Shown here: piece after piece, positions 8,471-45,690 of the stretch | Numbering within the stretch: the stretch's first letter is position 1 | How the letters are laid out: each line of letters opens with the position of its first letter | Assembly (NCBI GenBank): GCA_000004695.1 | Contig: CM000154.2 | Coordinates: 3,648,001-3,712,000 of the forward strand | Length of the DNA stretch: 64,000 bases | Source: Dictyostelium discoideum | Taxonomy: Eukaryota | Direction: 5' to 3' | Notes under the pieces: model-generated | Databases searched by the model: none | The model's input: only the letters and a program-made list of their open reading frames with translations | Told to the model about the DNA's origin: nothing | Position numbers and translations under genes: made by a program

Positions 8471-10157
8471 AATTTACAAAAACTGTTGGTGAAATTGTAA
8501 ATGCATTAATTAATGCTTATAAAGAAGGTAAAAAAGTGAATTTATTAAAGATTAAAACAGAATTAGCAGCAAAGAATTCATTATCAGATCAACCAAAATC
8601 TGTTGATATTATATCAGCAATTCCAGAATCATATAAAAATACATTATTACCATTATTAAAAGCAAAACCAGTTAGAACAGCATCAGGTATTGCAGTTGTT
8701 GCAGTTATGTGTAAACCACATCGTTGCCCACATTTAGCAATGACTGGTAATATTTGTGTATATTGTCCAGGTAAGTTTTTTAATAATAATAAAAAAAAAA
8801 AAAAAAAAAGAAAAAAGAAACTAATAATAAATAAAAATAATAAAAATAAATAGGTGGACCAGATTCAGATTTTGAATATTCAACACAATCATATACAGGT
8901 TATGAACCAACATCAATGAGAGCAATTAGAGCACGTTATAATCCATTTTTACAAACACGTCATCGTATTGATCAATTAAAACGTTTAGGACATAATGTTG
9001 AAAAGGTAGAATTCATTATTATGGGTGGCACATTTATGTCATTACCATCAGATTATAGGGATTATTTCATTCGTAATTTACATGATGCCTTATCGGGTCA
9101 TACATCAAATAATGTTGCAGAAGCAGTTAAATATTCAGAGCAAAGTAATGTTAAATGTGTTGGTATTACAATTGAAACACGTCCAGATCATTGTTTAAAA
9201 CTTCATCTTAGTAATATGTTAACCTATGGTTGTACACGTTTGGAGATTGGTGTACAAAGTGTTTTCGAAGATATTGCACGTGATACAAATCGTGGTCATA
9301 CAGTGCGTGCCGTATTGGAGTCATTTCAATTGGCAAAGGATAGTGGTTTCAAAGTGGTTGCACATATGATGCCAGATTTACCAAATATGGGTATGGAGAG
9401 AGATATCTATGGTTTTATGGAGTTTTTTGAGAATCCAGCATTTAGAGCTGACGGTTTGAAAATCTATCCAACTTTGGTAATTCGTGGTACAGGTCTTTAT
9501 GAACTTTGGAAAACTGGAACCTATAAAAATTATTCACCCGATTCTTTGGTGGATTTAATCGCAAAGGTATTGGCTTTGGTACCACCTTGGACTCGTATCT
9601 ATCGTATTCAAAGAGATATTCCAATGCCATTGGTTACAAGTGGTGTCGAGTATGGTAATTTACGTGAACTTTGTCTTGCTCGTATGAAAGATTTTGGTAC
9701 AAAATGTAGAGATGTTCGTACTCGTGAAGTTGGTATTCAAGAGGTACATCATAAAATTAAACCAGATCAAGTCGAATTAATTCGTCGTGATTACGTTGCC
9801 AATGGTGGTTGGGAAACATTTTTAAGTTTTGAAGATCCAAAACAAGATATTCTCATTGGTTTACTTCGTCTTAGAAAATGTTCAGAAACTTCTTTTAGAC
9901 CAGAGTTAAAGGAAAATTGTTCAATCGTTAGAGAATTACACGTTTATGGTAGTGTAGTTGGTATTCATAATCGTGATCCAACTAAATTTCAACATCAAGG
10001 TTATGGTACTTTATTAATGGAAGAAGCTGAAAGAATTGCAAGAGAAGAACATGGTTCAATTAAATTGGCAGTTATCGCTGGTGTTGGTACTCGTCATTAT
10101 TATAGAAAATTAGGTTATGAATTAGATGGTGTTTACGTTTCAAAATATCTTGGTTAA
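8306..10157 (+). CDS. elp3: Elongator complex protein 3 (radical-SAM plus GNAT acetyltransferase), join(8306..8363,8453..8770,8854..10157)
   Basis: Exon 1 [19 protein letters not shown] with donor GTAAGT 8364-8369 (phase 1). Exon 2 runs from 8453 (acceptor AG 8451-8452): ..[98 protein letters not shown], donor GTAAGT 8771-8776 (phase 1). Exon 3 runs from 8854: [42 protein letters not shown]...[30 protein letters not shown]. About 75% identical to human ELP3 over the full length. Confidence 0.9.
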
Positions 10158-10236: not shown

Positions 10237-10886
10237 TATAGAATTTTAATAAATAAAAAAAATAAAAAAATAAAAAAATAAAAAAAAATTATTTAATTCA
10301 ATATTTTATTTCAATTTCTAATTTTTTTTTGTTATTTTAACTTCTGGAAATTGACATTTTTGTTTTTTTTTTATTTTTTTTTTTTTGGAGATTTTGGACA
10401 TGGTGATTTTTTTTTTTTTTTGGAACAGTTTGGTTTGATTATATTGTATTTTTTATCCAAGTAAGATATGATTTGAGGTTTCCTTTTGATCACAAAAGGA
10501 GCATGGCTTGTTGAAGGCTTTTGGTAGTGCTTTGAGTTCGTATTGCCAGAGTAGGTTCAAATGTGTGGGATGTCATTGTCCATATGTTGTTGCTACTCAG
10601 CTTTTTAAAATATGTAAAATTGTAACTAAAGCAATGCAACGTAACGAAAGTAAATGTAACGAAAGTGGTCAATTGTAATGTTTAATAATTTATTTAGGAA
10701 TTTAAATTCTCTTAATATTTATAAATTTAAATATATTTTTATTTAATACTTTTTAAGCATATAATTTCTTTATTATTATTAATGTAGGGGATAATACACT
10801 CGGAAGACTGAAGTTGGTACTGAGAATCGAACTCACGATCTTAAATTAGCGAATCTGACAAACCATTAAAATTCATTGGTCCATAT

Positions 10887-10960
10887 GGTCGGATGGTGTA
10901 GTCGGTTATCACGGTTGCTTTACACGCAACAGGTCTCGAGTTCGATCCTCGGTCGGATCA
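10887..10960 (+). tRNA. tRNA-Val (anticodon UAC), copy 1
   Basis: Cloverleaf: acceptor GGTCGGA/TCGGATC (one G-G mismatch at 5:68, one G-U), D-arm GTGT-AGTCGGTTA-TCAC, anticodon stem GTTGC/GCAAC with loop TTTACAC (U33, anticodon TAC 10921-10923, A37). Variable AGGTC, T-arm TCGAG-TTCGATC-CTCGG, discriminator A. A T5 run follows at 10965-10969. An identical copy lies 1400 bp downstream. Confidence 0.75.
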
Positions 10961-10964
10961 TATC

Positions 10965-10969
10965 TTTTT
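10965..10969 (+). terminator. Pol III oligo(T) terminator after tRNA-Val copy 1 (same at 12365..12369 after copy 2)
   Basis: TTTTT starts 5 nt after the discriminator base. Confidence 0.6.
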
Positions 10970-11722
10970 AATTTATTATTCTTTTTTCCTCAATCTATCT
11001 TATTTTTGTTCTCTGAGAAAATTTTCTATCGATTCACGCAAGTTTCATCGATTTTGGATGTCATTTGAGCAATTATCACAAACAATTTTTTTTTTTTTTT
11101 TTAAAATTTTTTTTTTTTTTTTCCAAATAATATTACTTTAAAAACAATCTAAATTCACAAAACAGATACAAATATTCCAAAGAAGGGATTTCAATCGACA
11201 CAATTAAAGGTTATATTTACAGTTAAATAATCAAAACATTCTCCAAATATACAAAAGGTAATGTTTAAATTTTACTCCATATGTTTAATATTAAACTAAT
11301 TAAAAATACACTGGAAAAAAACCTAAACTGGATTTAATTTATTATTTGATTTAATTTTAATACAAATATATTTAAATGGAACATGTTTATTCTATCAGAT
11401 TAAAAAATATTTATTTTTGCTTGTAAAAAATTAGAAGATTGTAGTACTTTATCAGATTATAAAAAATAATTCACACTCTATTAATTTTTAAATTTAAAAC
11501 TCTTACTCCTAATACAAAATGAAGCTAAATATCTTATGTTTTTTATTAATTTTCTTTAAATCTTTCAAATCAAACTAACCAAAATTTTTTAAAAAAAAAC
11601 GTTTTATTTATATTTAATTTTTTTATAATTGCGTTATCCAATTCAAAAAAAAATTTATTTTTAATTTTTTAATATGAAACAATAACAGACTCTAAAACGG
11701 AACTTGATCCTTCAATAGTTCA

Positions 11723-12041
11723 AGAAGTTCTTGCAATTTTATTAAGTGCCAAACCATTTGATTGTAAAACTAATGCATTAGAACCTCTATATGATAGGGA
11801 GATACCGTATCCTTTAAACCATTTACGAAAATCTTGACTCATATTTAGATATGAATCATCTAAAGAAACTATTGCAATTACAGTTTTTACGTGATTTAAT
11901 CTCTCCGACGAAACTAATAAAACCAAGTGAAGTGTCTTTAACACCAGGTAAATCTTCCATATATGTATCGCATTTTAACATTTTTACAACACTTGGATTT
12001 GATGGATCAAATGCAAATGCATTTATTCCACCACCATTCAA
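11723..12041 (-). pseudogene. Truncated and frameshifted gene fragment of unknown family between the two tRNA-Val units
   Basis: Minus ORF 11856..12041 (MNGGGINAFAFDPSNPSVVKMLKCDTYMEDLPGVKDTSLGFISFVGEIKSR...) continues in another frame as ORF 11720..11944 (..TVIAIVSLDDSYLNMSQDFRKWFKGYGISLSYRGSNALVLQSNGLALNKIARTS*). The only GT..AG pair at the switch would make a ~22-nt intron, which is too short for a real one. The 5' side starts abruptly at the repeat-unit boundary. Confidence 0.3.
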
Positions 12042-12049
12042 TATATATG

Positions 12050-12486
12050 AAAGTAAATGTAACGAAAGTGGTAAATTGATCTGTAATTATTTATTTAGGA
12101 ATTTAAATTCTCTTGATATTAAAATTTAAATATATTTTTATTTAATACTTTTTTAGGCATATAATTTCTTTATTATTATTAATGTAAGGGATAATGCACC
12201 CAGAAGACTGAAGTGGGTACTGAGAATCGAACTTACGACCTTAAAGAAGCGATTCTGGCAAACCATTAAAATTCGATAGTTAATATGGTCGGATGGTGTA
12301 GTCGGTTATCACGGTTGCTTTACACGCAACAGGTCTCGAGTTCGATCCTCGGTCGGATCATATCTTTTTATTTAATTTTCTTTTTTTAAATCTATCTTAT
12401 TTTTGTTCTCTGAGAAATTTGCTATTGATTCATGCAAGTTTCACCTATTTTTATTTTGGTTTGAGCATCTATATATATATTTTTTT

Positions 12487-12520
<34 letters not shown>

Positions 12521-12660
12521 CAAAAAAAGGCTCTCAAGCCAGGTGAAAAACAGTAAAGTAATTCACAAAACAAATACCAACATTTCATAAAAGGAATTTC
12601 AAAAATGATAAGATGTTTATATTTCATGCCATATGTTTACCATTAAATTTTTAACACCAG
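12050..12660 (+). repeat. Unit 2 of the tRNA-Val direct repeat
   Basis: See unit 1. The units are spaced 1400 bp apart. Confidence 0.8.
12287..12360 (+). tRNA. tRNA-Val (anticodon UAC), copy 2 (identical to copy 1)
   Basis: Same 74-nt sequence as 10887..10960. A T5 run follows at 12365-12369. Confidence 0.75.
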
Positions 12661-12840
12661 CACCCCAGTAATAGAATGGATATAAACATATTTATAACTA
12701 AAAATTAAAAAAAAAAAAAAAAAAAAAAAACATAAATTATAATGATAATATAAAACAATAATAATATTTATAATAATAATAGTAATAATTGTAATAAAAA
12801 TAATAATAATAATTTTTTTAAAATTTTAATTTTATTTTAA

Positions 12841-14716
12841 TTAATTATAATATAAACTTTCACCAGTGTTAACTAAATAATAAACATTATTATGCATAAG
12901 TACAAATGTTATTGGAATAATAAATGCATTAAAATTTGAAAACATTAATAAATTTGTATTTTTTCTAAATATTTGAATTGGATGATTAAGTAAAGAAATA
13001 TCGTATTTAACTTGAAAGAGATAACGAATAACTAAAAATATCATATAACTTAGGAAACTTGAAAAGAATGCATAAATCACATCCAACATAAATGCTTCAA
13101 TCGAAATATCAAATGGATAAAATTTTGCATTATATGAAAACCTCAAACAAACTGCAAATAAAATATAAATTAATGGTACAGAACAATAACTATATTTAAA
13201 TACAAAAAAATTAATAATAAAAAAAGTTTGAATTAATATATTTATATTTATATTATATATTTTTTGTTTTTATAATTATTTACCTTATAAATGTATATAA
13301 AACTCTATCAACAACTCTAGTCATATGTTCATTTCTTTCCATTTCAATTGGGAAAAGTTGACCTAAAATTGTATAATATGGTTTTTCAAAACTATTTACA
13401 GTTGAAATCCAACTATTTTGTCTAGTTCTATCATGATGATCTTTAACTTGAGTTCTTAGATTCCAATATTTATCTGAAAGGAAGAAAAGATAACGAAACA
13501 TTACAACCACTCTTAAGAGTATTAAAACTAGGAAATTGATTTTTGTAAATCTACTAAATGCCCAACAAAATGTCATTTCCGAGATTGATTCAGTCCAATA
13601 GGTGATAATATTATGTTGATTTACTGGACAATATTTACGAGTGATCCAAAGTAATGCTTGATTACACATAAACACTTTGAAAAAGAATACTAACATCACC
13701 AAAGTTTGAGCTTCAATTAATGAAAAGAATATTACAAATGTAACACATAGGAATATAGTTGCAATTACAATCACCATAAATAACATGAAATGTAAGAAAT
13801 CAATAAAGAATCCCCAATTGAATCTTTCCGCTGATTTTAAATATAATAATGCCGGTAGGACTGATGCACTCATACCATAGGAAACTCCAATTACTACTGG
13901 TGGTGGATAACTTTCACTATATTGCGTTATACATGAAAATGTTACACTAACCAACAAGATATGAATTGCCATTGGTAATAACCAACTTTTAATACCTTTA
14001 CAAAATATTTGAGCCCATCCAACAATAAAAAATGAAATAAAACATGTTATAACAGGTATATACATTATTGTATATTCCCAACCCAATAGAAATCCACCAT
14101 ATGGTTTTGATAATGGTAAGAGTACACTAAAAAACACAGCAATCATTGGAAACACTAACATTCTTAAAATAAATGTAAAATTCTCTGAAATTTGTGCGAA
14201 TTTACTATACTTTAAATTACTTAAATTTCCACCTGCAGCAGTTGGATTACCCATACCATTAATTACAAATATTTTATCTGTTTGGTAATATGGTTGAACA
14301 AAATTATTTGGATATGCATTAACTGAATATGATGGTTTTATATTTGCTCCATTTGGTTCACTATCACTCTCTAATGAATTAATTTGATTATTATTACCAC
14401 TATTACTATTATTATTATTGTTATTATTGTTATTATTACCTGGTGTTGATCCTGTTGGTGTTGGATAGCTTAATCCAATTGGGATCTCTTGAAAATATCC
14501 ATTATGATTTGAATCTTGTTGATCATAACTATTCCCATACATTTTTGTTAAATCTTGATTATTATTATTATTATTAATATTATTATTATTATTAAAAAAA
14601 TTATTATTATTTATATTTTGATTATTTGATAAAGTTTTAATTATAGAATTATGTGAACGTGATTGTGAATATGATAATTTTGAAATTGGTATTTTGTTTA
14701 ATTCATTCAATTCCAT
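12841..14716 (-). CDS. Multi-pass (about 10 TM) membrane protein with Asn-rich N-terminal region, complement(join(12841..13189,13284..14716))
   Basis: The 478-aa minus ORF has many hydrophobic helices (..AVFFSVLLPLSKPYGGFLLGWEYTIMYIPVITCFISFFIVGWAQIF..). It ends at AG|GTAAAT (donor GT 13283-13282, phase 2). A ~94-nt AT-rich intron follows, then acceptor TTTAAATATAG (AG 13191-13190). The join is in frame (..YTFI-S-YCSVPLIYILFAVCLRFSYNAKFYPF..) with the hydrophobic ORF 12841..13146. The family was not recognised. Note the track's ORF 12841..13146 starts at a TTG, not an ATG. Confidence 0.55.
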
Positions 14717-14859
14717 AAAATTTTTTTTTTTTTTTTTTATATATTATTTTGATTAAAAAAAAAAAAATAAAAAAATAAAAAAAAAATAATAAAAAAAAAA
14801 AAAAAAGATTAATAAAAAAAATAATTAACTGTTTATTATTTGTTTTAAATTAGGAAACG

Positions 14860-14904
<45 letters not shown>

Positions 14905-16674
14905 CAAAAAAAAAAATAAAATAAAATAAAACAAAAATAAATAAAATAGTAGCAAAAATAAATAAATAAAATTGATTGATTGTTTTTTGTTTTTTTTATA
15001 ATATTGTTATTATATATTATTTTTAAAATTAATAATAAATATTTTTTTTTTTTTAGTAATAATAATAGTAAATGTAATTTTTATAAAAAAAAAATATATT
15101 AAAAATATAAAAAAAAAAAAAAACTTTTTGGTAATTACTAATTATTTGAATAAATGAAATTGTTATTTGGCACAAACAAAAAAAAAAAAAAAAAAAAAAA
15201 ATTTAAATGATTAAAAGTACTAACCACTCAAAAATACGATTTTTTTATTTTATTTTTTTGATTTATATTTTTATTTAAAAAAAAATAGATAAAAATAAAA
15301 AATTAACAAATAAATATCCCACACTATACCTTTTTGGTTTTAAAAGAAAAAAAAAAAAAAAGAAAAAAAAAGATCAAAACAATTTTTATTTTTTTTAATT
15401 AATTTTGTTTTTTTATGATGTAGTTAGTGTTTACAAGATGAAAATTTCTTTTATTATTAAGAGAGAGATTAAAATTTTATTATTGTTATTTAAAAAATAT
15501 TTAGTGGGAAAATTGAGTGGGTCAAAAAATTTTTAATTTAATTTTTTAACATTTTTATGGTCCAAATTTTTCAAATTTTCTGTTAAGGGATCAAGCCCAC
15601 ACTAAAAATGATGAGCAAACTAGATTATTGAAAATACAAAAAGTTAAATGTAAAAATTTAAAAATCCTACATATCAAATATATATTTTTTATTTTTGTAT
15701 TTTTTTTTAGAAAACTATTGGCCTTTTTTTTTATATTGATATATACAGTTTTTGTTTATAAAAATATATGAAAATAGTTTTAAATTAATAAAGATGGTTT
15801 TATTTTAAAATTAAAAAAAAAAAAATTTAAATAAATTAAAATTAATACTTGTTACAAAAAAAATTTGTAAGTATAAAAAAAACAAACCCTCTGTTGAGAT
15901 TGTAAAAAAAAAAAAAAAAAAAATTATATTTAAAATTATTACATTTAGGATATGATATGCCTAATTCCAAAAAAAAAAAAACACTTTCATAATTTTATTT
16001 TAGTTTAAATAATATTATTTAACTAAACTAAAAAACCAAAATAATTTAAATTAAAATTATATATAAAAAAAAAAAAAAAATTTCTATTTATAGTAAATTA
16101 AAAATAATATTTTTTTTTTTTTTTTAGTACATCAATTGCAGAAGAATTAATAATTTTAATAGAAATATTTGGGAATGAATTTTTATACAATAATAAATAA
16201 AAAATGAAAACAATCCATCTAAAAAGAAAATAAAATTTTTTTAAAACAGATAAATGATGCAGATTAGCTGACCAAATTAAAAAAAAAAAAAAAAAAAAAT
16301 AATTAAAAAAAATGATTTTAATTTTTTTTTTTTTTAAAATTAATTAATATTCATTTTTTTTTTTCATTTTAATTTTCATTTTATTTTTCATTTTTTTTTT
16401 TTTTTTTCAAACAATAATTTAAATTTATTAATTCTTAAAATTAATTAAGTATAGATAAATAGAGCACACAAAAATACACAAAATGATATAAAAATTAAAA
16501 AAAATGAATGTGATCATTCTATTTTTTGAATTTTTTATTTTATTTTTTAAATCAAAAATTTTATTTTTTTGGGTGTCCAATTTGAATGTTTTTATCAATT
16601 TTTTATTATGATTATTTTTTTTTTATTTTTTTTTTTTTATTTTTTATTTTTCAAACCAAAACCCAACACATAAA

Positions 16675-27865: not shown

Positions 27866-29951
27866 TTTTTATTAATAATAAAAGATATGAAATAAGAATG
27901 AATGAAAAAAATAATGAATTTTTTAAATGTAAGCTTTATTTATTAATTTATTGTTTTTGTAAATGATATTCACATTATTCTGACTGTGGGACCCAAATTT
28001 AGACGATGATTTTGGAAAGTTTTATATTTATACAGATAAGGAATCTTTTAAATTTAAAAATAAACTTGGTGTGGCATTTAAAGATGATTGTAATATTTTA
28101 TCAAAATTAGAACAAAACCAACTACCATCAAGTGTAATGTTATTAGATGGATTCAACCAGAAATTAATACAAAATATATTACCAGAAGGTATTTTATCCT
28201 TGTATTTAGGTGATATAAAACAAGAATTAATTATTGACTCAATTCCTAATACTGTAACAACTGTTGTTTTATGTAATGGTTTCAATCAAAAATTAACCAA
28301 AGGTATAATACCAGAAAGTGTTAAAGAGTTGTATATAGGTAATTTAAAACAAGAATTAATTATTGATTCAATTCCTAATACTGTAACAACTGTTGGTTTA
28401 TGTGATGGATTCAATCAAAAATTAACCAAAGGTATAATACCAGAAAGTGTTAAAGAGTTACGTTTAGCTGATATAAAACAAGAATTAATAATTAATTCAA
28501 TTCCTAATACTGTAACAACCGTTGGTTTATGTGATGGTTTCAATCAAAAATTAACCAAAGGTATAATACCAGAAGGTGTTAAAGTGTTACGTTTAGGTGA
28601 TATAAAACAAGAATTAATAATTGATTCAATTCCTAATACTGTAACAACTGTTGTTTTATGTAATGGATTCAATCAAAAATTAACCAAAGGTATAATACCA
28701 GAAGGTGTTAAAGAGTTGCATATATGTGATATAAAACAAGAATTAATTATTGATTCAATTCCTAATACTGTAACAACTGTTGTTTTATATGATGGATTCA
28801 ATCAAAAATTAACCAAAGGTATAATACCAGAAGGTGTTAAAGTGTTGCATATATGTGATATAAAACAAGAATTAATTATTGATTCAATTCCTAATACTGT
28901 AACAACTGTTATTTTATGTGATGGATTCAATCAAAAATTAACCAAAGGTATTATACCTGAAGGTGTTAAAGAGTTGTATATATGTGATATAAAACAAGAA
29001 TTAATAATTGATTCAATTCCTAATACTGTAACAACCGTTGGTTTAAGTGATGGATTCAATCAAAAATTAACCAAAGGTATAATACCAGAAGGTGTTAAAG
29101 AGTTACTTTTAAGTGATATAAAACAAGAATTAATTATTGATTCAATTCCTAATACTGTAACAACTGTTGGTTTATATGATGGATTCAATCAAAAATTAAC
29201 CAAAGGTATAATACCAGAAGGTGTTAAAGAGTTAGAGTTAGGTGATATAAAACAAGAATTAATTATTGATTCAATTCCTAATACTGTAACAACTGTTACT
29301 TTATGTAATGGATTCAATCAAAAATTAACCAAAGGTATTATACCTGAAGGTGTTAAAGAGTTGCATATATTTGATATAAAACAAGAATTAATTATTGATT
29401 CAATTCCTAATACTGTAACAACTGTTTTTTTATGTGATGGATTCAATCAAAAATTAACCAAAGGTATAATACCAGAAAGTGTTAAAGAGTTACGTTTAGG
29501 TGATATAAAACAAGAATTAATAATTGGTTCAATTCCTAATACTGTAACAGCTGTTGGTTTATATGATGGATTCAATCAAAAGTTAACCAAAGGTATAATA
29601 CCTGAAGGTGTTAAAGAGTTACGTTTAGGTAAAATAAAACAAGAATTAACAATTGATTCAATCCCTAATACTGTAACAACTGTTGGTTTATTAGATGGAT
29701 TCAATCAAAAATTAACCAAAAGCATAATACCAGAAGGTGTTAAAGAGTTGTATATAGGTGATATAAAACAAGAATTAATAATTGGTTCAATTCCTAATAC
29801 TGTAACAACTGTTGGTTTATATGATGGATTCAATCAAAAATTAACCAAAGGTATAATACCAGAAAGTGTTAAATTATTACGTTTAGGTGATATAAAACAA
29901 GAATTAATAATTGGTTCAATTCCTAATACTGTAACAACTGTTACTTTTTAA
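27019..29951 (+). CDS. B-box zinc finger + FNIP-repeat protein, member 3, apparently intact: join(27019..27928,28003..29951); acceptor could instead be AG 28034-28035
   Basis: Exon 1: polyN, B-box [37 protein letters not shown], coiled coil, polyN; donor GTAAGC 27929 (phase 1). Two in-frame acceptors exist. I prefer TTTAG 27998-28002 because the resulting ..FYIYTDKESF.. parallels member 2 ..[12 protein letters not shown]... Exon 2 holds 15 near-identical 120-bp double FNIP repeats and ends TVTF*. Confidence 0.75.
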
Positions 29952-31130
29952 AATTCCAATATATTTTTGTTCAAAGGATAGTACTTGTTCATATAATAAA
30001 TGAAATATCACCTTAAATGAAAAAAAAAAAAAAAAAAAAAATCCATTACGTAGGTAATGATGCCTAATTCCAAAAAAAAAAAACACTCAAATTAATTTTT
30101 GATTTTAAAATGTTCATAAAGACAAAAGATTTTTGTGTAAATTTTTAAAATAATATTATTTTTCCAAAAATACATATTCTTTTTTACAATAATATGTTTT
30201 TTTTTTTTAAGGAAAAAAACAAAAATACCTATACTTTTAAAATGAAATACGTATTTTTTAAAATTTTCTGGAAATTTCTAAATTTGAATGTAAAAAAAAA
30301 ATATTTTTAAAAAAAAATATCTATTTTTAGACAAAAATATGTTCCATTAAAAACTACTGATTTTTTAAAATTAAATAAAAAAAAAAAATAAAAAAATTAA
30401 ATTAAATTAAATTAAATTAAATTAAATTAAATTAAATTAAATAATTTAGTAAAATTACACCAAGTCCTAAATTAAACAAAATGTAAAAAAAAAAAAAAAT
30501 TATAAACAGAAAAAAAAAATAAAAAATGTAAAAAATAAAATGAATTAATTAATAACATTATTTATTTTTTATTTTTTTTTGTGTTAGACTCTCTTATATT
30601 GGAAACAATATCTTCCAATTTATGAGATATGTTGGAATTTTTTATTTTTTATTATTTTATAATTTTTTTTTCTAGATATATCTTTACCTAATTTTGTAAG
30701 CTCCAACCGTGTGTATGTGGAAAACTTTTTTTTTAAAAATTAATCATTTTAAAATAATTTCAACATACCGAGGAAATTTGGATCATTTAAACAAAATCGT
30801 TTTAATACTCTGTATGTTAGCTGATCTTCAAGAAACATAAAATGATGGTTTTGGCATTGAATTCGACAAAGATAAACTTAAAGAAATAAAAGAAAAAGAA
30901 CAGTGTTTGTTGTTAAATAAAATAACTAAAATATAATAAAAAAGGGATGAATAAAAAATAAAAAAATTAAAATCTGGGATAACAAAAAAAATTAAAAAAA
31001 AAATAAAAAAAAATAAAAAAAAAATAAAAAAATAAAAATATTTACAAAAACTTTTCATTTTTTCATAAAATTTATTGTATTTTTAATTTTTTTTTTTTTT
31101 ATTTTCCAAATCAAAACACAACAAAAAAAA

Positions 31131-31139
31131 ATGATGAAA

Positions 31140-31185
<46 letters not shown>

Positions 31186-33247
31186 GTAATAATAATAATA
31201 ATAATAGTACAACCATTGAAAAATTAAATCAAATTATTCAAAATAACAATCAACAACTTTATGATAATGATTTTCATATTGATACAGATACAATTAAAAT
31301 AATTAAACAATATCAACAATCATTAATAATTTTAAATAATAATAATGATATCAATAATTCAAATAAATTAAAAGAATACAACAATCAATTAATTATAATC
31401 AACGAATAATTGGAGAAATTAAAGATAAATTAAAATTAATTTACACATTAAATAATAATAAAAATAATTATATTTCTATTAATAATAAAAGATATAAAAT
31501 ACAAATGGACTAAAAAAATAATGAGTTTTTTATATGTAAGTTTTATTTATTAATTTTTTGCTTTTGTAAATGATATTTACATTATTCTGACTTTGGGGAC
31601 CAAAATTTAGATGATTATTTTCAAGAGGTTTATATTTATACAGATAAGGAATATTTTAATTTTAGAAATAAATTTTATTGCATTTAAAGATGATTGTAAT
31701 ATTTTATCAAAATTAGAACAAAACCAACTACCATCAAGTGTAATGTTAGTAGATGGATTCAACAAGAAATTAATACAAAATATATTACCAGAAGGTATTT
31801 TATCCTTGTATTTAGGTGATATAAAACAAGAATTAACTATTGGTTCAATTCCTAATACTGTAACAACTGTTAATTTTTTACATGGATTCGATCAAAAATT
31901 AACCAAAGGTATAATACCAGAAAGTGTTAAAGTGTTACGTTTAGGTAATATAAAACAAGAATTAATTTTTGATTCAATTCCTAATACTGTAAAAACTGTT
32001 ATTTTATGTAATGGATTCAATCAAAAATTAACCAAAGGTATAATACCAGAAAGTGTTAAAGAGTTACGTTTAGGTGATATAAAACAAGAATTAATTATTG
32101 ATTCAATTCCTAATACTGTAACAACTGTTACTTTATATAATGGATTCAATCAAAAATTAACCAAAGGTTTAATTCCAAAAGGTGTTAAAGAGTTGTATAT
32201 AAGTGATATAAAACAAGAATTAATAATTGATTCAATTCCTAATACTGTAACAACTCTTATTTTATTTGATGGATTCAACCAAATATTAACCAAAGGTATA
32301 ATACCTGAAGGTGTTAAATTGTTGTATATAAAGTGTTAAAGAGTTACATATAGGTGATATAAAACAAGAATTAATTATTGATTCAATTCCTAATACTGTA
32401 ACAACTGTTACTTTATTTGATGGATTCAATCAAAAATTAACCAAAGGTATAATACCAGAAAGTGTTAAAGAGTTGTATATAGGTGATATAAAACAAGAAT
32501 TAATTATTGATTCAATTGCTAGTACTGTAACAACTGTTGGTTTATATAATGGATTCAATCAAAAATTAACCAAAAGCATAATACCTGAAGGTGTTAAAGA
32601 GTTGTATATAGGTAATATAAAACAAGAATTAATTATTGATTCAATTCCTAATACTGTAACAACTGTTACTTTATGTAATGGATTCAATCAAAAATTAACC
32701 AAAGGTATAATACCAGAAAGTGTTAAATTCTTACGTTTAGGTGATATAAAACAAGAATTAATTATTGATTCAATTCCTAATACTGTAACAACTGTTATTT
32801 TATGTAATGGATTCAATCAAAAATTAACCAAAGGTATAATACCAGAATGTGTTAAAGAGTTAGATATAGGTGATATAAAACAAGAATTAATAATTGGTTC
32901 AATTCCTAATACTGTAACAACTGTTACTTTATGTGATGGATTCAATCAAAAATTAACCAAAGGTATAATACCAGAAAGTGTTAAATTATTACGTTTAGGT
33001 AATATAAAACAAGAATTAATAATTGGTTCAATTCCTAATACCGTAACAACTGTTAGTTTATGTGTTGGATTCAATCAAAATAACCAAAGGTATAATACCA
33101 GAACGAGTTAAATTGTTACATTTAAGTTATATAAAACCAGAATTCATAATTGATTCAATTCATAATACAACAACTGTTAGCTTATTAGAACGTTTTAAAA
33201 TCAATTATCTCGAAAGTATAATTCCAGAGGGTGTTAAATTAAATTAA
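31131..33247 (+). pseudogene. FNIP-repeat family member 4: degenerate duplicate of member 3 with the B-box deleted
   Basis: 31085-31160 equals the member-3 promoter and start (ttttccaaatcaaaacacaacaaaaaaaATGATG[G/A]AAAATAATAAT..). The polyN then joins directly to ..[23 protein letters not shown].. (member-3 residue ~175), so about 480 bp covering the B-box and coiled coil are missing. A 4-nt deletion at about 31387 and an in-frame TAA (TGGACTAAAAAA, 31507-31512) follow. The exon-2 FNIP array is broken at about 32320 (fused out-of-frame repeat) and about 33075. Confidence 0.7.
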
Positions 33248-45575: not shown

Positions 45576-45648
45576 GCCCGTTTAGCAAAGTTGGAATTGC
45601 GGCAGCCTTCTAAGCTGCAGGTCGTGGGATCGAGACCCACAATGGGTG
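45576..45648 (+). tRNA. tRNA-Arg (anticodon UCU) with atypical T-loop; T5 terminator at 45653-45657 and external B box at 45682-45690
   Basis: GCCCGTT-TA-GCAA-AGTTGGAA-TTGC-G-GCAGC-CTTCTAA-GCTGC-AGGTC-GTGGG-ATCGAGA-CCCAC-AATGGGT-G. The anticodon stem and T-stem are perfect, U33 is present, and the anticodon is TCT (45609-45611). The acceptor stem has two G-U pairs. The T-loop reads ATCGAGA (A at position 54) where the human tRNA-Arg-TCT T-arm is GTGGGTTCGAGTCCCAC. Downstream aGGTTCGATGtc matches the dictyostelid external B box (GGTTCGAATCC-like). Confidence 0.6.
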
Positions 45649-45681
45649 AAACTTTTTAAAGGTGTACCAATAATGGTCGCA

Positions 45682-45690
45682 GGTTCGATG
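45682..45690 (+). promoter_or_regulatory. External B box (ex-B) downstream of tRNA-Arg
   Basis: GGTTCGATG lies 34 nt after the tRNA 3' end. A duplicated B-box-like element downstream of the gene body is a known feature of many Dictyostelium tRNA genes. Confidence 0.5.

What the first reader, a model, noticed from the sequence alone, without database searches (positions are those of the whole stretch)
10654..12660. Recent ~1.4-kb tandem duplication carrying tRNA-Val(UAC), with an unusually GC-rich conserved block immediately upstream of each tRNA
Two identical tRNA genes sit in 650-bp direct repeats. The 95 bp upstream of each tRNA (GGGATAAT.CAC.C.GAAGACTGAAGT.GGTACTGAGAATCGAACT.ACGA.CTTAAA..GCGA.TCTG.CAAACCATTAAAATTC) is about 40% GC in a genome where intergenic DNA is under 15% GC. 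It contains an antisense T-arm-like motif (GAGTTCGATTCTCAG on the minus strand). It may be a tRNA-derived remnant, a Pol III upstream element or the edge of a targeted retroelement. The 750 bp between the units holds a truncated, frameshifted gene fragment, consistent with the duplication having broken a gene.
Basis: seen in the sequence. Interest (0 to 1): 0.5.

Follow-up and report, generated by a model that had tools for sequence, protein, structure and literature searches.

The report
Old tRNA-Val repeat with antisense tRNA relic
Two old copies of a Dictyostelium tRNA-Val gene each carry a decayed, backwards-facing piece of another tRNA just upstream, and the broken gene between them is what a 2.2-kb deletion left behind; it is an ordinary scar of genome evolution, not a new element.

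Summary
There are two identical tRNA-Val(UAC) genes, 10887-10960 and 12287-12360. They sit in direct repeats of about 0.55-0.65 kb, and each has an 89-bp block of 38-42% GC directly upstream.

The duplication is not recent. The repeats are only 84.5% identical. Both copies also exist in two divergent D. discoideum-clade assemblies, where an intact two-gene ILEI-like cassette lies between them. The window looks like D. discoideum AX4 (identical ELP3 exon). It has lost about 2.2 kb of that cassette, leaving a frameshifted fragment covering aa 49-175. D. citrinum, D. firmibasis and D. dimigraforme have a single tRNA-Val and no cassette at this locus.

On the minus strand, the block reads as the 3' two-thirds of a tRNA: anticodon-like loop, AGGTC, T arm with a B-box consensus, and a 3' acceptor strand. 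Its consensus 21-mer matches prokaryotic tRNA genes exactly at least 120 times. It is no longer a tRNA by Rfam, ARAGORN, pairing counts or folding energy. It is no better conserved than its flanks, and it is absent upstream of the orthologous tRNA-Val in other species.

Best reading: a decaying tRNA-derived relic copied along with the tRNA-Val unit. A residual TFIIIC-binding role for its inverted B box is not excluded.

The parts
10646..11194 (+). Repeat unit, copy 1 (A copy, on the ELP3 side): AT-rich flank, GC-rich block, tRNA-Val, about 235 bp of downstream flank
   Evidence: blastn of the unit against the window gives 10646-11194 = 12049-12602, 84.5% over 563 columns. It is colinear with the A copies of L001 and L005.
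12049..12602 (+). Repeat unit, copy 2 (B copy): ortholog of the cassette-distal tRNA-Val unit of relatives
   Evidence: Window 12062-16377 is colinear with L005 8042-3587. Its AT-rich flank carries the B-type diagnostic variants.
10887..10960 (+). tRNA-Val(UAC) gene, copy 1; T5 terminator at 10965-10969
   Evidence: ARAGORN; Rfam tRNA 53 bits against a gathering score of 29; internal B box GTTCGATCC at 10940-10948.
12287..12360 (+). tRNA-Val(UAC) gene, copy 2; T5 terminator at 12365-12369
   Evidence: identical to copy 1 over 74/74 bases.
10803..10886 (-). Decayed antisense tRNA-like relic, copy 1 (this is the GC-rich block 10786-10874). Read on the minus strand: anticodon-like loop TTCGCTA at 10847-10853, variable-loop-like AGATC, T arm GTGAG-TTCGATT-CTCAG at 10820-10836, 3' acceptor-like TACCAAC+T at 10812-10819
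   Evidence: Sequence. The profile built from 11 copies scores 83.8 bits here. The consensus 21-mer lies in prokaryotic tRNA genes. It is not called a tRNA.
12203..12286 (-). Decayed antisense tRNA-like relic, copy 2 (GC-rich block 12186-12274)
   Evidence: 81.9 bits; 78/89 identical to copy 1.
10824..10832 (-). Inverted B-box-like motif GTTCGATTC, 55-63 bp upstream of tRNA-Val +1 (second copy at 12224-12232)
   Evidence: The motif GTTCRANNC is retained in all 12 D. discoideum-clade copies examined.
11672..12050 (-). Pseudogene fragment of a 175-aa ILEI-like gene: aa 49-175, one frameshift between aa 105 and 106, one in-frame stop
   Evidence: tblastn of P0001 gives 84-86% identity in two frames. 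Nearest homologs are P0001-P0003. Weak Pfam ILEI match.
12049..12061 (.). Deletion junction. The window lacks about 2.1-2.2 kb present in relatives (L005 8043-10247, L001 8112-10236), which holds the 5' end of the 175-aa gene and the whole 147-aa gene
   Evidence: blastn colinearity breaks; junction sequences.

Best explanation
The locus holds two old paralogous copies of a unit of about 0.55-0.65 kb. Each unit carries a Pol III-transcribed tRNA-Val(UAC) gene that looks functional.

Inferred history:
- The ancestral locus had a single tRNA-Val gene between ELP3 and the next gene, as D. citrinum, D. firmibasis and D. dimigraforme still do.
- In the D. discoideum clade, a two-gene ILEI-like cassette (175-aa and 147-aa genes) came to lie between two direct copies of the tRNA-Val unit.
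- In the window's lineage (apparently AX4), an illegitimate deletion of about 2.2 kb removed most of the cassette. It left the 3' two-thirds of the 175-aa gene, which has since gained a frameshift and a stop codon.

The GC-rich block is the antisense remnant of a tRNA-type sequence running from the anticodon arm to the 3' acceptor strand. It lies head-to-head against the tRNA-Val gene. It was already part of the unit when the unit was copied, so every copy has it. It is GC-rich because it has not yet decayed to the genome's AT-rich equilibrium. Most likely it does nothing now, although it still carries a consensus B box.

Shown here: the coordinates, the comparative arrangement, the deletion, the tRNA-type sequence of the T-arm segment, and the absence of cloverleaf maintenance. 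Inferred: the order of events, the neutral status of the block, and the mechanism that produced the flanking repeats.
For: Identity and context:
- The window's ELP3 exon is 100% identical to D. discoideum AX4 ELP3.

Comparative arrangement:
- Syntenic loci L001 and L005, and paralogous loci L004, L007 and L008, all read tRNA-Val_A, 175-aa gene, 147-aa gene, tRNA-Val_B.
- The window lacks L005 8043-10247. The fragment covers aa 49-175 with one frameshift and one stop.
- D. firmibasis, D. citrinum (two assemblies) and D. dimigraforme have one tRNA-Val and no cassette at this locus.

The block:
- It is present upstream of all 12 clade copies, while the tRNA itself is 74/74 identical in all of them.
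- The consensus 21-mer AGGTCGTGAGTTCGATTCTCA has at least 120 exact hits in prokaryote genomes, against about 0.3 expected by my own calculation. Of 123 occurrences, 115 lie inside tRNA genes called by ARAGORN: Thr, Ala, Met and others.
- Local alignment of the antisense block to tRNA-Val gives p of about 0.005, confined to the T arm.

No sign of constraint:
- Minimum changes per site are 0.41 for the T-arm segment, 0.23 for the AT-rich flank and 0 for the tRNA.
- Only 52% of cloverleaf cells pair, the same as the shuffled and slid controls.
- The fold z-score is +0.40.
- No T4 run follows the B box within about 95 nt on the minus strand.
Against: - The B-box motif GTTCRANNC survives in 12 of 12 copies. 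That includes L007_A, where an 18-nt deletion plus a substitution still leaves GTTCAATTC. This could reflect selection for TFIIIC binding.
- Several independent deletions stop at the left edge of the block.
- The tRNA origin rests on about 45 nt. Neither Rfam nor ARAGORN recognises a tRNA, and the donor tRNA cannot be named. The loop TTCGCAA suggests Ala-CGC, while the T arm is closest to tRNA-Val's own.
- The copies are not independent. Gene conversion within genomes is evident from shared spacer variants, so conservation statistics are weak.
- The distribution of the block at other tRNA-Val(UAC) genes across the genome could not be tested.
Confidence: 0.7

Rival explanations
1. The inverted B box, with or without the AAACCATTAAAATTC motif, is a functional extra TFIIIC site. 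It would be an upstream, inverted counterpart of the Dictyostelium ex-B box or of yeast ETC sites, helping to recruit or retain TFIIIC at these tRNA-Val genes or acting as a boundary.
For: GTTCRANNC is kept in 12/12 copies. These tRNA-Val genes have no downstream ex-B motif, whereas the window's tRNA-Arg has one. Antisense B-box motifs also lie upstream of the orthologous tRNA-Val in D. dimigraforme (-52) and D. firmibasis (-101). A/B-box loci without any tRNA context are proposed Pol III complex assembly sites on the rDNA element (PMC5391098).
Against: The T-arm segment changes more per site than the AT-rich flank. The copies are related and undergo gene conversion, so 12/12 represents few independent trials. 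Neither D. citrinum assembly has a B-box match there. The profile of the block does not detect the other species' elements. A solo B box is reported to be a poor Pol III complex assembly site (PMC5391098).
Confidence: 0.15
2. The block is the edge of a tRNA-targeted retroelement. Candidates are a TRE5 5' end, a DGLT-A solo LTR or primer-binding-site region, or a retro-copied CCA-tailed tRNA.
For: The conserved part ends at -13, inside the 13-18 bp window reported for DGLT-A (PMC6101501). On the plus strand the block begins TGA-A-GTGGGTA, one transition away from a TGG primer-binding-site start. The position of CCA reads TCA in most copies. Retroelements do sit next to these tRNA-Val copies in relatives.
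Against: There is no RT, gag or integrase ORF and no LTR-like TG..CA ends. blastn finds no similarity between the unit and the TRE3-like or chromodomain LTR elements in L001, L004, L008 or L130. The antisense tRNA-like stretch is about 48 nt, far longer than a primer-binding site. TRE5 sits about 48 bp upstream, not at -13 (PMC5391098). The AT-rich flank on the far side continues as ordinary repeat DNA.
Confidence: 0.05
3. The block is a gene-external Pol III promoter element, or a separate small RNA gene (snoRNA, or a tRNA-like RNA on either strand).
For: AAACCATTAAAATTC at -27 to -13 is invariant in 8 of 12 copies. A CUGA and a degenerate C-box-like string can be picked out on the plus strand.
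Against: The block is absent upstream of the orthologous tRNA-Val in three species and upstream of tRNA-Arg. Rfam gives only chance-level hits. The putative D box is mutated in copy 2 and the first CUGA varies. There is no fold stability, no covariation, and no minus-strand terminator.
Confidence: 0.04
4. One reading: a recent tandem duplication of 1.4 kb that broke a gene.
For: The tRNA bodies are identical and the units are in direct orientation 1.4 kb apart.
Against: The flanks are only 84.5% identical. Both copies are present in assemblies about 8-11% diverged from the window. The gene is intact between the copies there. tRNA identity is universal across all 12 copies, so it says nothing about age.
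Confidence: 0.02

Closest known systems
Duplicated, sequence-identical tRNA genes and tRNA-associated repeat clusters of the D. discoideum genome
   Same: Same-anticodon, 100% identical tRNA genes a few kb apart. Retroelements (TRE3-like, Skipper-like) have inserted next to the copies in relatives. tRNA-linked repeats have been proposed as duplication breakpoints in laboratory strains (PMC2643946).
   Different: Here the two copies flank a protein-coding cassette. The same tRNA-cassette-tRNA module recurs at three loci in one relative, and the window shows a deletion derivative of it.
tRNA pseudogenes and tRNA-derived relics
   Same: A T arm with B-box consensus, an AGGTC variable loop, a 7-nt anticodon-like loop and a 3' acceptor strand in the correct order and spacing. 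The stems are decayed. There is no terminator and no detectable constraint.
   Different: It lies antisense and abuts the 5' end of a live tRNA gene. Its 5' third is unrecognisable, and it falls below the detection threshold of Rfam and ARAGORN.
Dictyostelium ex-B boxes, yeast ETC sites, and the A/B-box loci on the Dictyostelium rDNA palindrome (PMC5391098)
   Same: A B-box consensus GTTCRANNC outside a functional tRNA gene, with an A-box-like AATGG about 33 nt before it on the same strand.
   Different: It lies upstream and inverted rather than 20-40 bp downstream (ex-B position from my recollection of Hofmann et al. 1991). The stringent A-box motif TRRYNNARYNG is not met. No binding or TRE5-targeting data exist for it.
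TRE5 and DGLT-A insertions upstream of tRNA genes
   Same: Position just upstream of a tRNA gene. The conserved edge at -13 falls in the DGLT-A window.
   Different: No element sequence, ORF, LTR ends or convincing target-site duplication. The unit shows no similarity to the retroelements sampled here.

Membership tests
tRNA gene (the two Val-UAC genes) | Cloverleaf above the Rfam gathering score, a readable anticodon, internal A and B boxes, and an oligo-T terminator | tested here: met
   53 bits against 29; anticodon UAC; A box TGGTGTAGTCG fits TRRYNNARYNG; B box GTTCGATCC; T5 run 5 nt after the gene.
tRNA gene or pseudogene (the antisense block) | Recognised by a tRNA covariance model or by ARAGORN | tested here: not met
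   No tRNA hit at E up to 10 even in 49-117 nt searches. Only the T hairpin appears, at 2.7-5.4 bits. ARAGORN finds nothing at 80-100% thresholds, and only inconsistent noise at 60-70%.
tRNA gene or pseudogene (the antisense block) | T arm with B-box consensus and tRNA-type flanking sequence | tested here: met
   GTTCGATTC fits GTTCRANNC. The consensus 21-mer gives at least 120 exact prokaryotic hits, 115 of 123 inside tRNA genes.
tRNA gene or pseudogene (the antisense block) | Cloverleaf pairing maintained across copies | tested here: not met
   52% of cells paired, against 50% in shuffles. By helix: acceptor 33%, anticodon stem 56%, T stem 73%. Fold z-score +0.40.
Recent tandem duplication | Near-identity of the repeat arms, and absence from close relatives | tested here: not met
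   84.5% identity. Both arms are present in ACTFIR and ACTFIW.
TRE5 retrotransposon edge | Element 5' end about 48 bp upstream (range 37-50), head-to-head; element ORFs or modules | tested here: not met
   The block spans -13 to -101. There is no RT ORF and no similarity to the sampled elements. Comparison with the TRE5-A A-module sequence itself could not be made with these tools.
DGLT-A solo LTR | Insertion 13-18 bp upstream of the tRNA; LTR with TG..CA ends and a target-site duplication; similarity to DGLT-A | tested here: inconclusive
   The position criterion is met (edge at -13). No conserved TG..CA ends or target-site duplication are visible. No DGLT-A sequence was available for comparison.
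Gene-external Pol III promoter element | Shared by orthologous or other tRNA genes at a fixed distance | tested here: not met
   Absent upstream of the tRNA-Val orthologs in D. citrinum, D. firmibasis and D. dimigraforme and upstream of tRNA-Arg.
ex-B box or ETC-type extra TFIIIC site | B-box consensus bound by TFIIIC outside a gene (the ex-B box lies downstream in the same orientation) | not testable with these tools
   The sequence consensus is met in 12/12 copies, but the position and orientation differ from an ex-B box. TFIIIC binding is unknown.
Box C/D snoRNA | C (RUGAUGA) and D (CUGA) boxes with a terminal stem, conserved across copies | tested here: not met
   No C box. The candidate D box is CUGG in copy 2. 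Rfam snoRNA hits score 12 bits against a gathering score of 85.

The most novel reading that the evidence does not exclude
The module tRNA-Val unit, 175-aa gene, 147-aa gene, tRNA-Val unit is a recombination-mobilised gene cassette. It would insert at pre-existing tRNA-Val(UAC) genes through homology of the roughly 0.55-kb unit, for example by excision of a circle between the direct repeats and re-integration, or by gap repair from a donor locus. Either route regenerates flanking tRNA-Val repeats each time. The window would then show one such insertion at the ELP3 locus that was later eroded by deletion. On this reading the antisense tRNA relic is simply part of the portable homology arm.
Probability: 0.3. 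Interest if true: 0.5.

Novelty: new member of a known kind. Interest (0 to 1): 0.25.

Why it matters
The main value is correct annotation:
- The GC-rich island next to these tRNA genes is a tRNA-derived fossil, not a promoter element or a transposon edge.
- The 'broken gene' records a deletion, not a duplication breakpoint.

The comparative picture is modestly interesting. A solo tRNA-Val in three species contrasts with a tRNA-flanked two-gene cassette at up to three loci in D. discoideum-clade genomes. That fits the idea that multicopy tRNA units act as homology for moving and deleting genes in this compact genome. The inverted B box retained in every copy is a cheap candidate to examine in existing ATAC, ChIP or TRE5-integration data, to see whether TFIIIC binds outside genes on the chromosomes.

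Tried and rejected
- **Rfam.** Scans of the region and of short sub-windows on both strands found only the two tRNA-Val genes plus chance-level microRNA, snoRNA and tmRNA T-arm hits.
- **ARAGORN at relaxed thresholds.** No consistent call.
- **Coding potential of the block.** The differences between the two copies show no codon periodicity (read by eye), and there is no ORF.
- **Inverted copy of tRNA-Val itself.** The inverted B box lies at -55 and the tRNA's own at +54, which is suggestive. But only the T arm is similar (14/16). By my own count from the sequences, the first 44 positions match at 27%, and the T stem differs by a compensated pair. Rejected as unsupported.
- **Metagenome scan for the block.** 0 hits.
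- **Profile of the block against the orthologous upstream regions of D. firmibasis, D. citrinum and D. dimigraforme.** Nothing at the expected place. There is one 8-bit match about 100 nt further upstream in D. dimigraforme, so homology with the antisense A/B-box elements of those species is unproven.
- **D. purpureum ELP3 locus.** No tRNA.
- **Looking up the window's own record through an 856-aa ORF.** Failed. Species identity therefore rests on the ELP3 exon.
- **Rfam 'gathering' scan of four loci.** It returned nothing although each locus holds a 53-bit tRNA, so I disregarded it as a tool artefact.
- **GC-rich patch 10440-10645 tested as tRNA-Val debris or a structured RNA.** Not significant.
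Full report
**Observation.** The window is extremely AT-rich (21% GC). It carries two tRNA-Val(UAC) genes, at 10887-10960 and 12287-12360, on the plus strand (ARAGORN; Rfam tRNA 53 bits against a gathering score of 29). They are identical at 74/74 positions. Each is followed by a T5 terminator. They lie in direct repeats, 10646-11194 against 12049-12602, that are 84.5% identical over 563 aligned columns (86%). Patchy similarity continues to about 11295/12647. Directly upstream of each tRNA is an 89-bp block of 38-42% GC. It sits between an AT-rich flank of 13-15% GC and a variable 12-nt spacer. The two block copies match at 78/89 positions. On the minus strand the block contains GAGTTCGATTCTCAG, whose core GTTCGATTC fits the Dictyostelium B-box motif GTTCRANNC quoted in PMC5391098. 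The block's 18-mers occur nowhere else in the window.

**Organism and context.** The ORF at 8916-10157 is the C-terminal exon of Elongator protein 3. It is 100% identical to D. discoideum AX4 ELP3, against 99.5-99.8% for other Dictyostelium species. The window is therefore very probably AX4 or a near-identical strain. An exact look-up of another window ORF failed.

**The gene fragment and the real history.** The minus strand of 11672-12050 encodes, in two frames and with one internal stop, residues 49-175 of a 175-aa ILEI-like protein, at 84-86% identity to P0001. Fetching the loci that encode P0001 and its cluster members was decisive.
- In two assemblies labelled D. discoideum (ACTFIR = L001, ACTFIW = L005), the ELP3 locus is colinear with the window at 89-92% identity. 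It reads ELP3, tRNA-Val_A, intact 175-aa gene, 147-aa gene, tRNA-Val_B, downstream gene.
- Window 11653-12049 aligns to L005 10646-10248, and window 12062 onward aligns to L005 8042 downward. The window therefore lacks L005 8043-10247 (2.2 kb), which holds the first 48 codons of the 175-aa gene, the intergenic region and the whole 147-aa gene.
- The same tRNA-cassette-tRNA module recurs at a second locus in ACTFIR and ACTFIW (L004, L007) and at a third in ACTFIW (L008).
- By contrast, D. firmibasis, two D. citrinum assemblies and D. dimigraforme have a single tRNA-Val(UAC) and no cassette between ELP3 and the downstream gene. D. purpureum has no tRNA there.

The duplication therefore arose within the D. 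discoideum clade, before AX4 split from ACTFIR and ACTFIW. It did not break the gene; a later deletion in the window's lineage did. Copy 2 is the ortholog of the B copy, because its AT-rich flank carries the B-type variants and its downstream side is colinear with B's. The order of events is inferred from parsimony: an intact gene cannot be rebuilt from a fragment.

**Anatomy of the block.** The consensus of the clade copies, read on the minus strand away from the tRNA-Val, is: spacer, GAATTTTAATGGTTTC.CAGA, TTCGCAA, TTTTA, AGGTC, GTGAG-TTCGATT-CTCAG, TACCCAC, T. From the 7-nt loop onward, the order and spacing are those of a tRNA:
- a Y-U-NNN-A-A loop reading CGC (UGC in one copy);
- a 5-nt variable loop, AGGTC;
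- a T arm with 4 of 5 pairs;
- a 7-nt 3' acceptor strand and a discriminator base.

Position 1 of such a tRNA would fall at about 10884, only 2-3 nt from tRNA-Val +1. The two would therefore be head-to-head with essentially no spacer, and the 5' acceptor strand and D stem are not recognisable.

The 21-mer AGGTCGTGAGTTCGATTCTCA is exact in three clade copies and is the consensus of the 11-copy alignment; each window copy differs from it by one base. It has at least 120 exact matches in the prokaryotic genome collection, where I calculate about 0.3 would be expected by chance. Of 123 occurrences, 115 lie inside tRNA genes called by ARAGORN, mostly Thr, Ala and Met. This shows that the segment is genuine tRNA-type sequence.

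It is no longer a tRNA, on four counts:
- Rfam's tRNA model reports nothing even in 49-117 nt searches, apart from a 3-5 bit T hairpin.
- ARAGORN is silent at normal thresholds.
- Across 11 copies only 52% of the cloverleaf cells pair, no better than the shuffled or slid controls.
- The strand folds no better than shuffles, z = +0.40, and no T4 run follows the B box within about 95 nt.

**Is the block constrained?** All 12 D. discoideum-clade copies of the tRNA-Val unit carry the block. The minimum number of changes per site is as follows:

| Segment | Changes per site |
|---|---|
| tRNA | 0 |
| AT-rich upstream flank | 0.23 |
| Acceptor, T-arm and variable segment | 0.41 |
| AAACCATTAAAATTC | 0.53 |
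| Spacer | 1.25 |
| Downstream flank | 1.3 |
| Anticodon-arm-like segment | 1.36 |

The GC-rich block is thus not better kept than its AT-rich neighbour. That is what one expects of GC-rich neutral DNA under AT-biased mutation. Copies within one genome share spacer and block variants that their orthologs lack. This indicates gene conversion and means the copies are not independent samples.

Two facts keep a functional reading alive. First, the B-box motif survives in 12/12 copies, including L007_A, where an 18-nt deletion plus a substitution leaves GTTCAATTC. Second, several independent deletions end at the block's left edge.

**Other species.** A sequence profile built from the 11 copies scores 82-84 bits on the two window copies. 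It finds nothing at the corresponding place upstream of the orthologous tRNA-Val in D. firmibasis, D. citrinum or D. dimigraforme. As a sequence, the block is therefore clade-specific, which argues against a required promoter element. Curiously, those species have their own antisense B-box-bearing elements there:
- D. dimigraforme has GTTCGAAAC at -52, followed by T6.
- D. firmibasis has an element of about 100 nt that starts 48 bp upstream. It has a perfect A box, a B box 45 nt later, an Ala-type acceptor helix, an A8 run and a possible 8-bp target-site duplication.

Whether these are homologous to the AX4 block could not be established.

**Rival readings.**
- Retroelement edge. The conserved edge at -13 lies within the DGLT-A window (PMC6101501). 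However, there are no element ORFs, no LTR ends and no similarity to the TRE3-like or chromodomain LTR elements that sit beside these tRNA genes in relatives. TRE5 would lie near -48.
- Primer-binding site. The antisense tRNA stretch of about 48 nt is too long.
- snoRNA or another small RNA. There are no conserved boxes, no structure and no terminator.
- Mirror copy of tRNA-Val. Only the T arm is similar.

**Mechanism, with status.**
- Shown: two intact Pol III tRNA-Val genes; an antisense tRNA-type relic in every clade copy; the cassette between the copies in relatives; the deletion in the window; a single copy in outgroups.
- Inferred: the relic is neutral debris carried along when the unit was copied. 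The flanking repeats arose when the cassette was placed at, or next to, a resident tRNA-Val unit, possibly by homologous recombination through the unit. That would also explain the spread of the module to other loci.

**Not testable here.** The distribution of the block at other tRNA-Val(UAC) genes in AX4, its similarity to Dictyostelium repeat consensus sequences, and TFIIIC occupancy.

**Verdict.** The feature is real and is explained by ordinary processes: tRNA gene duplication, tRNA pseudogene decay, gene conversion and deletion. 'Recent' and 'the duplication broke a gene' are wrong. Interest is low to moderate. The most novel reading still open is that the tRNA-flanked cassette is mobilised by recombination.

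Noticed in passing
L129 (D. firmibasis) 13020-13116, minus strand: An antisense element of about 100 nt starting 48 bp upstream of the orthologous tRNA-Val. It has a perfect A box (TAGCATAGTGG), a B box (GTTCAAGTC) 45 nt later, a 7-bp Ala-type acceptor helix with G3:U70, and an A8 run followed by TTTT. It is flanked by ATTTAAAA on both sides, a possible target-site duplication. Its fold z-score is -3.15. Neither ARAGORN nor Rfam calls it a tRNA. Its position and orientation match TRE5-type integration, so it could be a tRNA-derived SINE-like element.
   Followed up: partly
L132 (D. dimigraforme) about 12085-12157, minus strand: An antisense B box (GTTCGAAAC) 52 nt upstream of the tRNA-Val, followed 12 nt later by a T6 run. 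This is another tRNA-like unit abutting the tRNA-Val head-to-head, and it is not called a tRNA.
   Followed up: partly
L001, L004, L005, L007, L008: The module tRNA-Val, 175-aa ILEI-like gene, 147-aa gene, tRNA-Val occurs at two loci in ACTFIR and three in ACTFIW. A paralogous gene pair without tRNAs sits next to a ubiquitin gene (L002, L003; the AX4 member is DDB_G0281691).
   Followed up: partly
L008 11257-17870: A 6.6-kb LTR retroelement with RT, RNase H, integrase and a chromodomain is inserted about 35 bp downstream of tRNA-Val_A, with about 5 bp of overlap at the junctions. L001 1-7400 holds a TRE3-like non-LTR element downstream of tRNA-Val_B.
   Followed up: partly
L008 18130-18260: Two decayed fragments of the tRNA-Val 5' half (for example GGTGAGGTGGTGTAGTCCCTTAT) lie upstream of copy A. 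This shows repeated partial duplication of this tRNA.
   Followed up: no
L008 5900-5990 (+) and 7215-7290 (-): Two copies of what looks like an intron-containing tRNA-Ile(UAU) gene that ARAGORN did not report.
   Followed up: no
window 10440-10645: A 34.5% GC patch between ELP3 and the repeat unit. It is conserved in ACTFIR and ACTFIW but not alignable in other species. It has no convincing ORF, no Rfam hit and a fold z-score of -1.8. It contains degenerate B-box-like strings (GAGTTCGTATT, GGTTCAAATG). Its origin is unexplained.
   Followed up: partly
window 45676-45690: The tRNA-Arg(UCU) gene (45576-45648) has a typical downstream ex-B box (AGGTTCGATGTC) about 30 bp after its end. The tRNA-Val copies have none.
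   Followed up: no
window 29527-33034: GTTCAATTC recurs six times on the plus strand at spacings that suggest a tandem repeat, probably a repetitive coding sequence. It inflates the count of B-box motifs in the window.
   Followed up: no
L129-L132 (tool behaviour): An Rfam 'gathering' scan of the four loci together returned no hits. Yet each locus has a tRNA-Val that scores 53 bits when scanned alone.
   Followed up: yes
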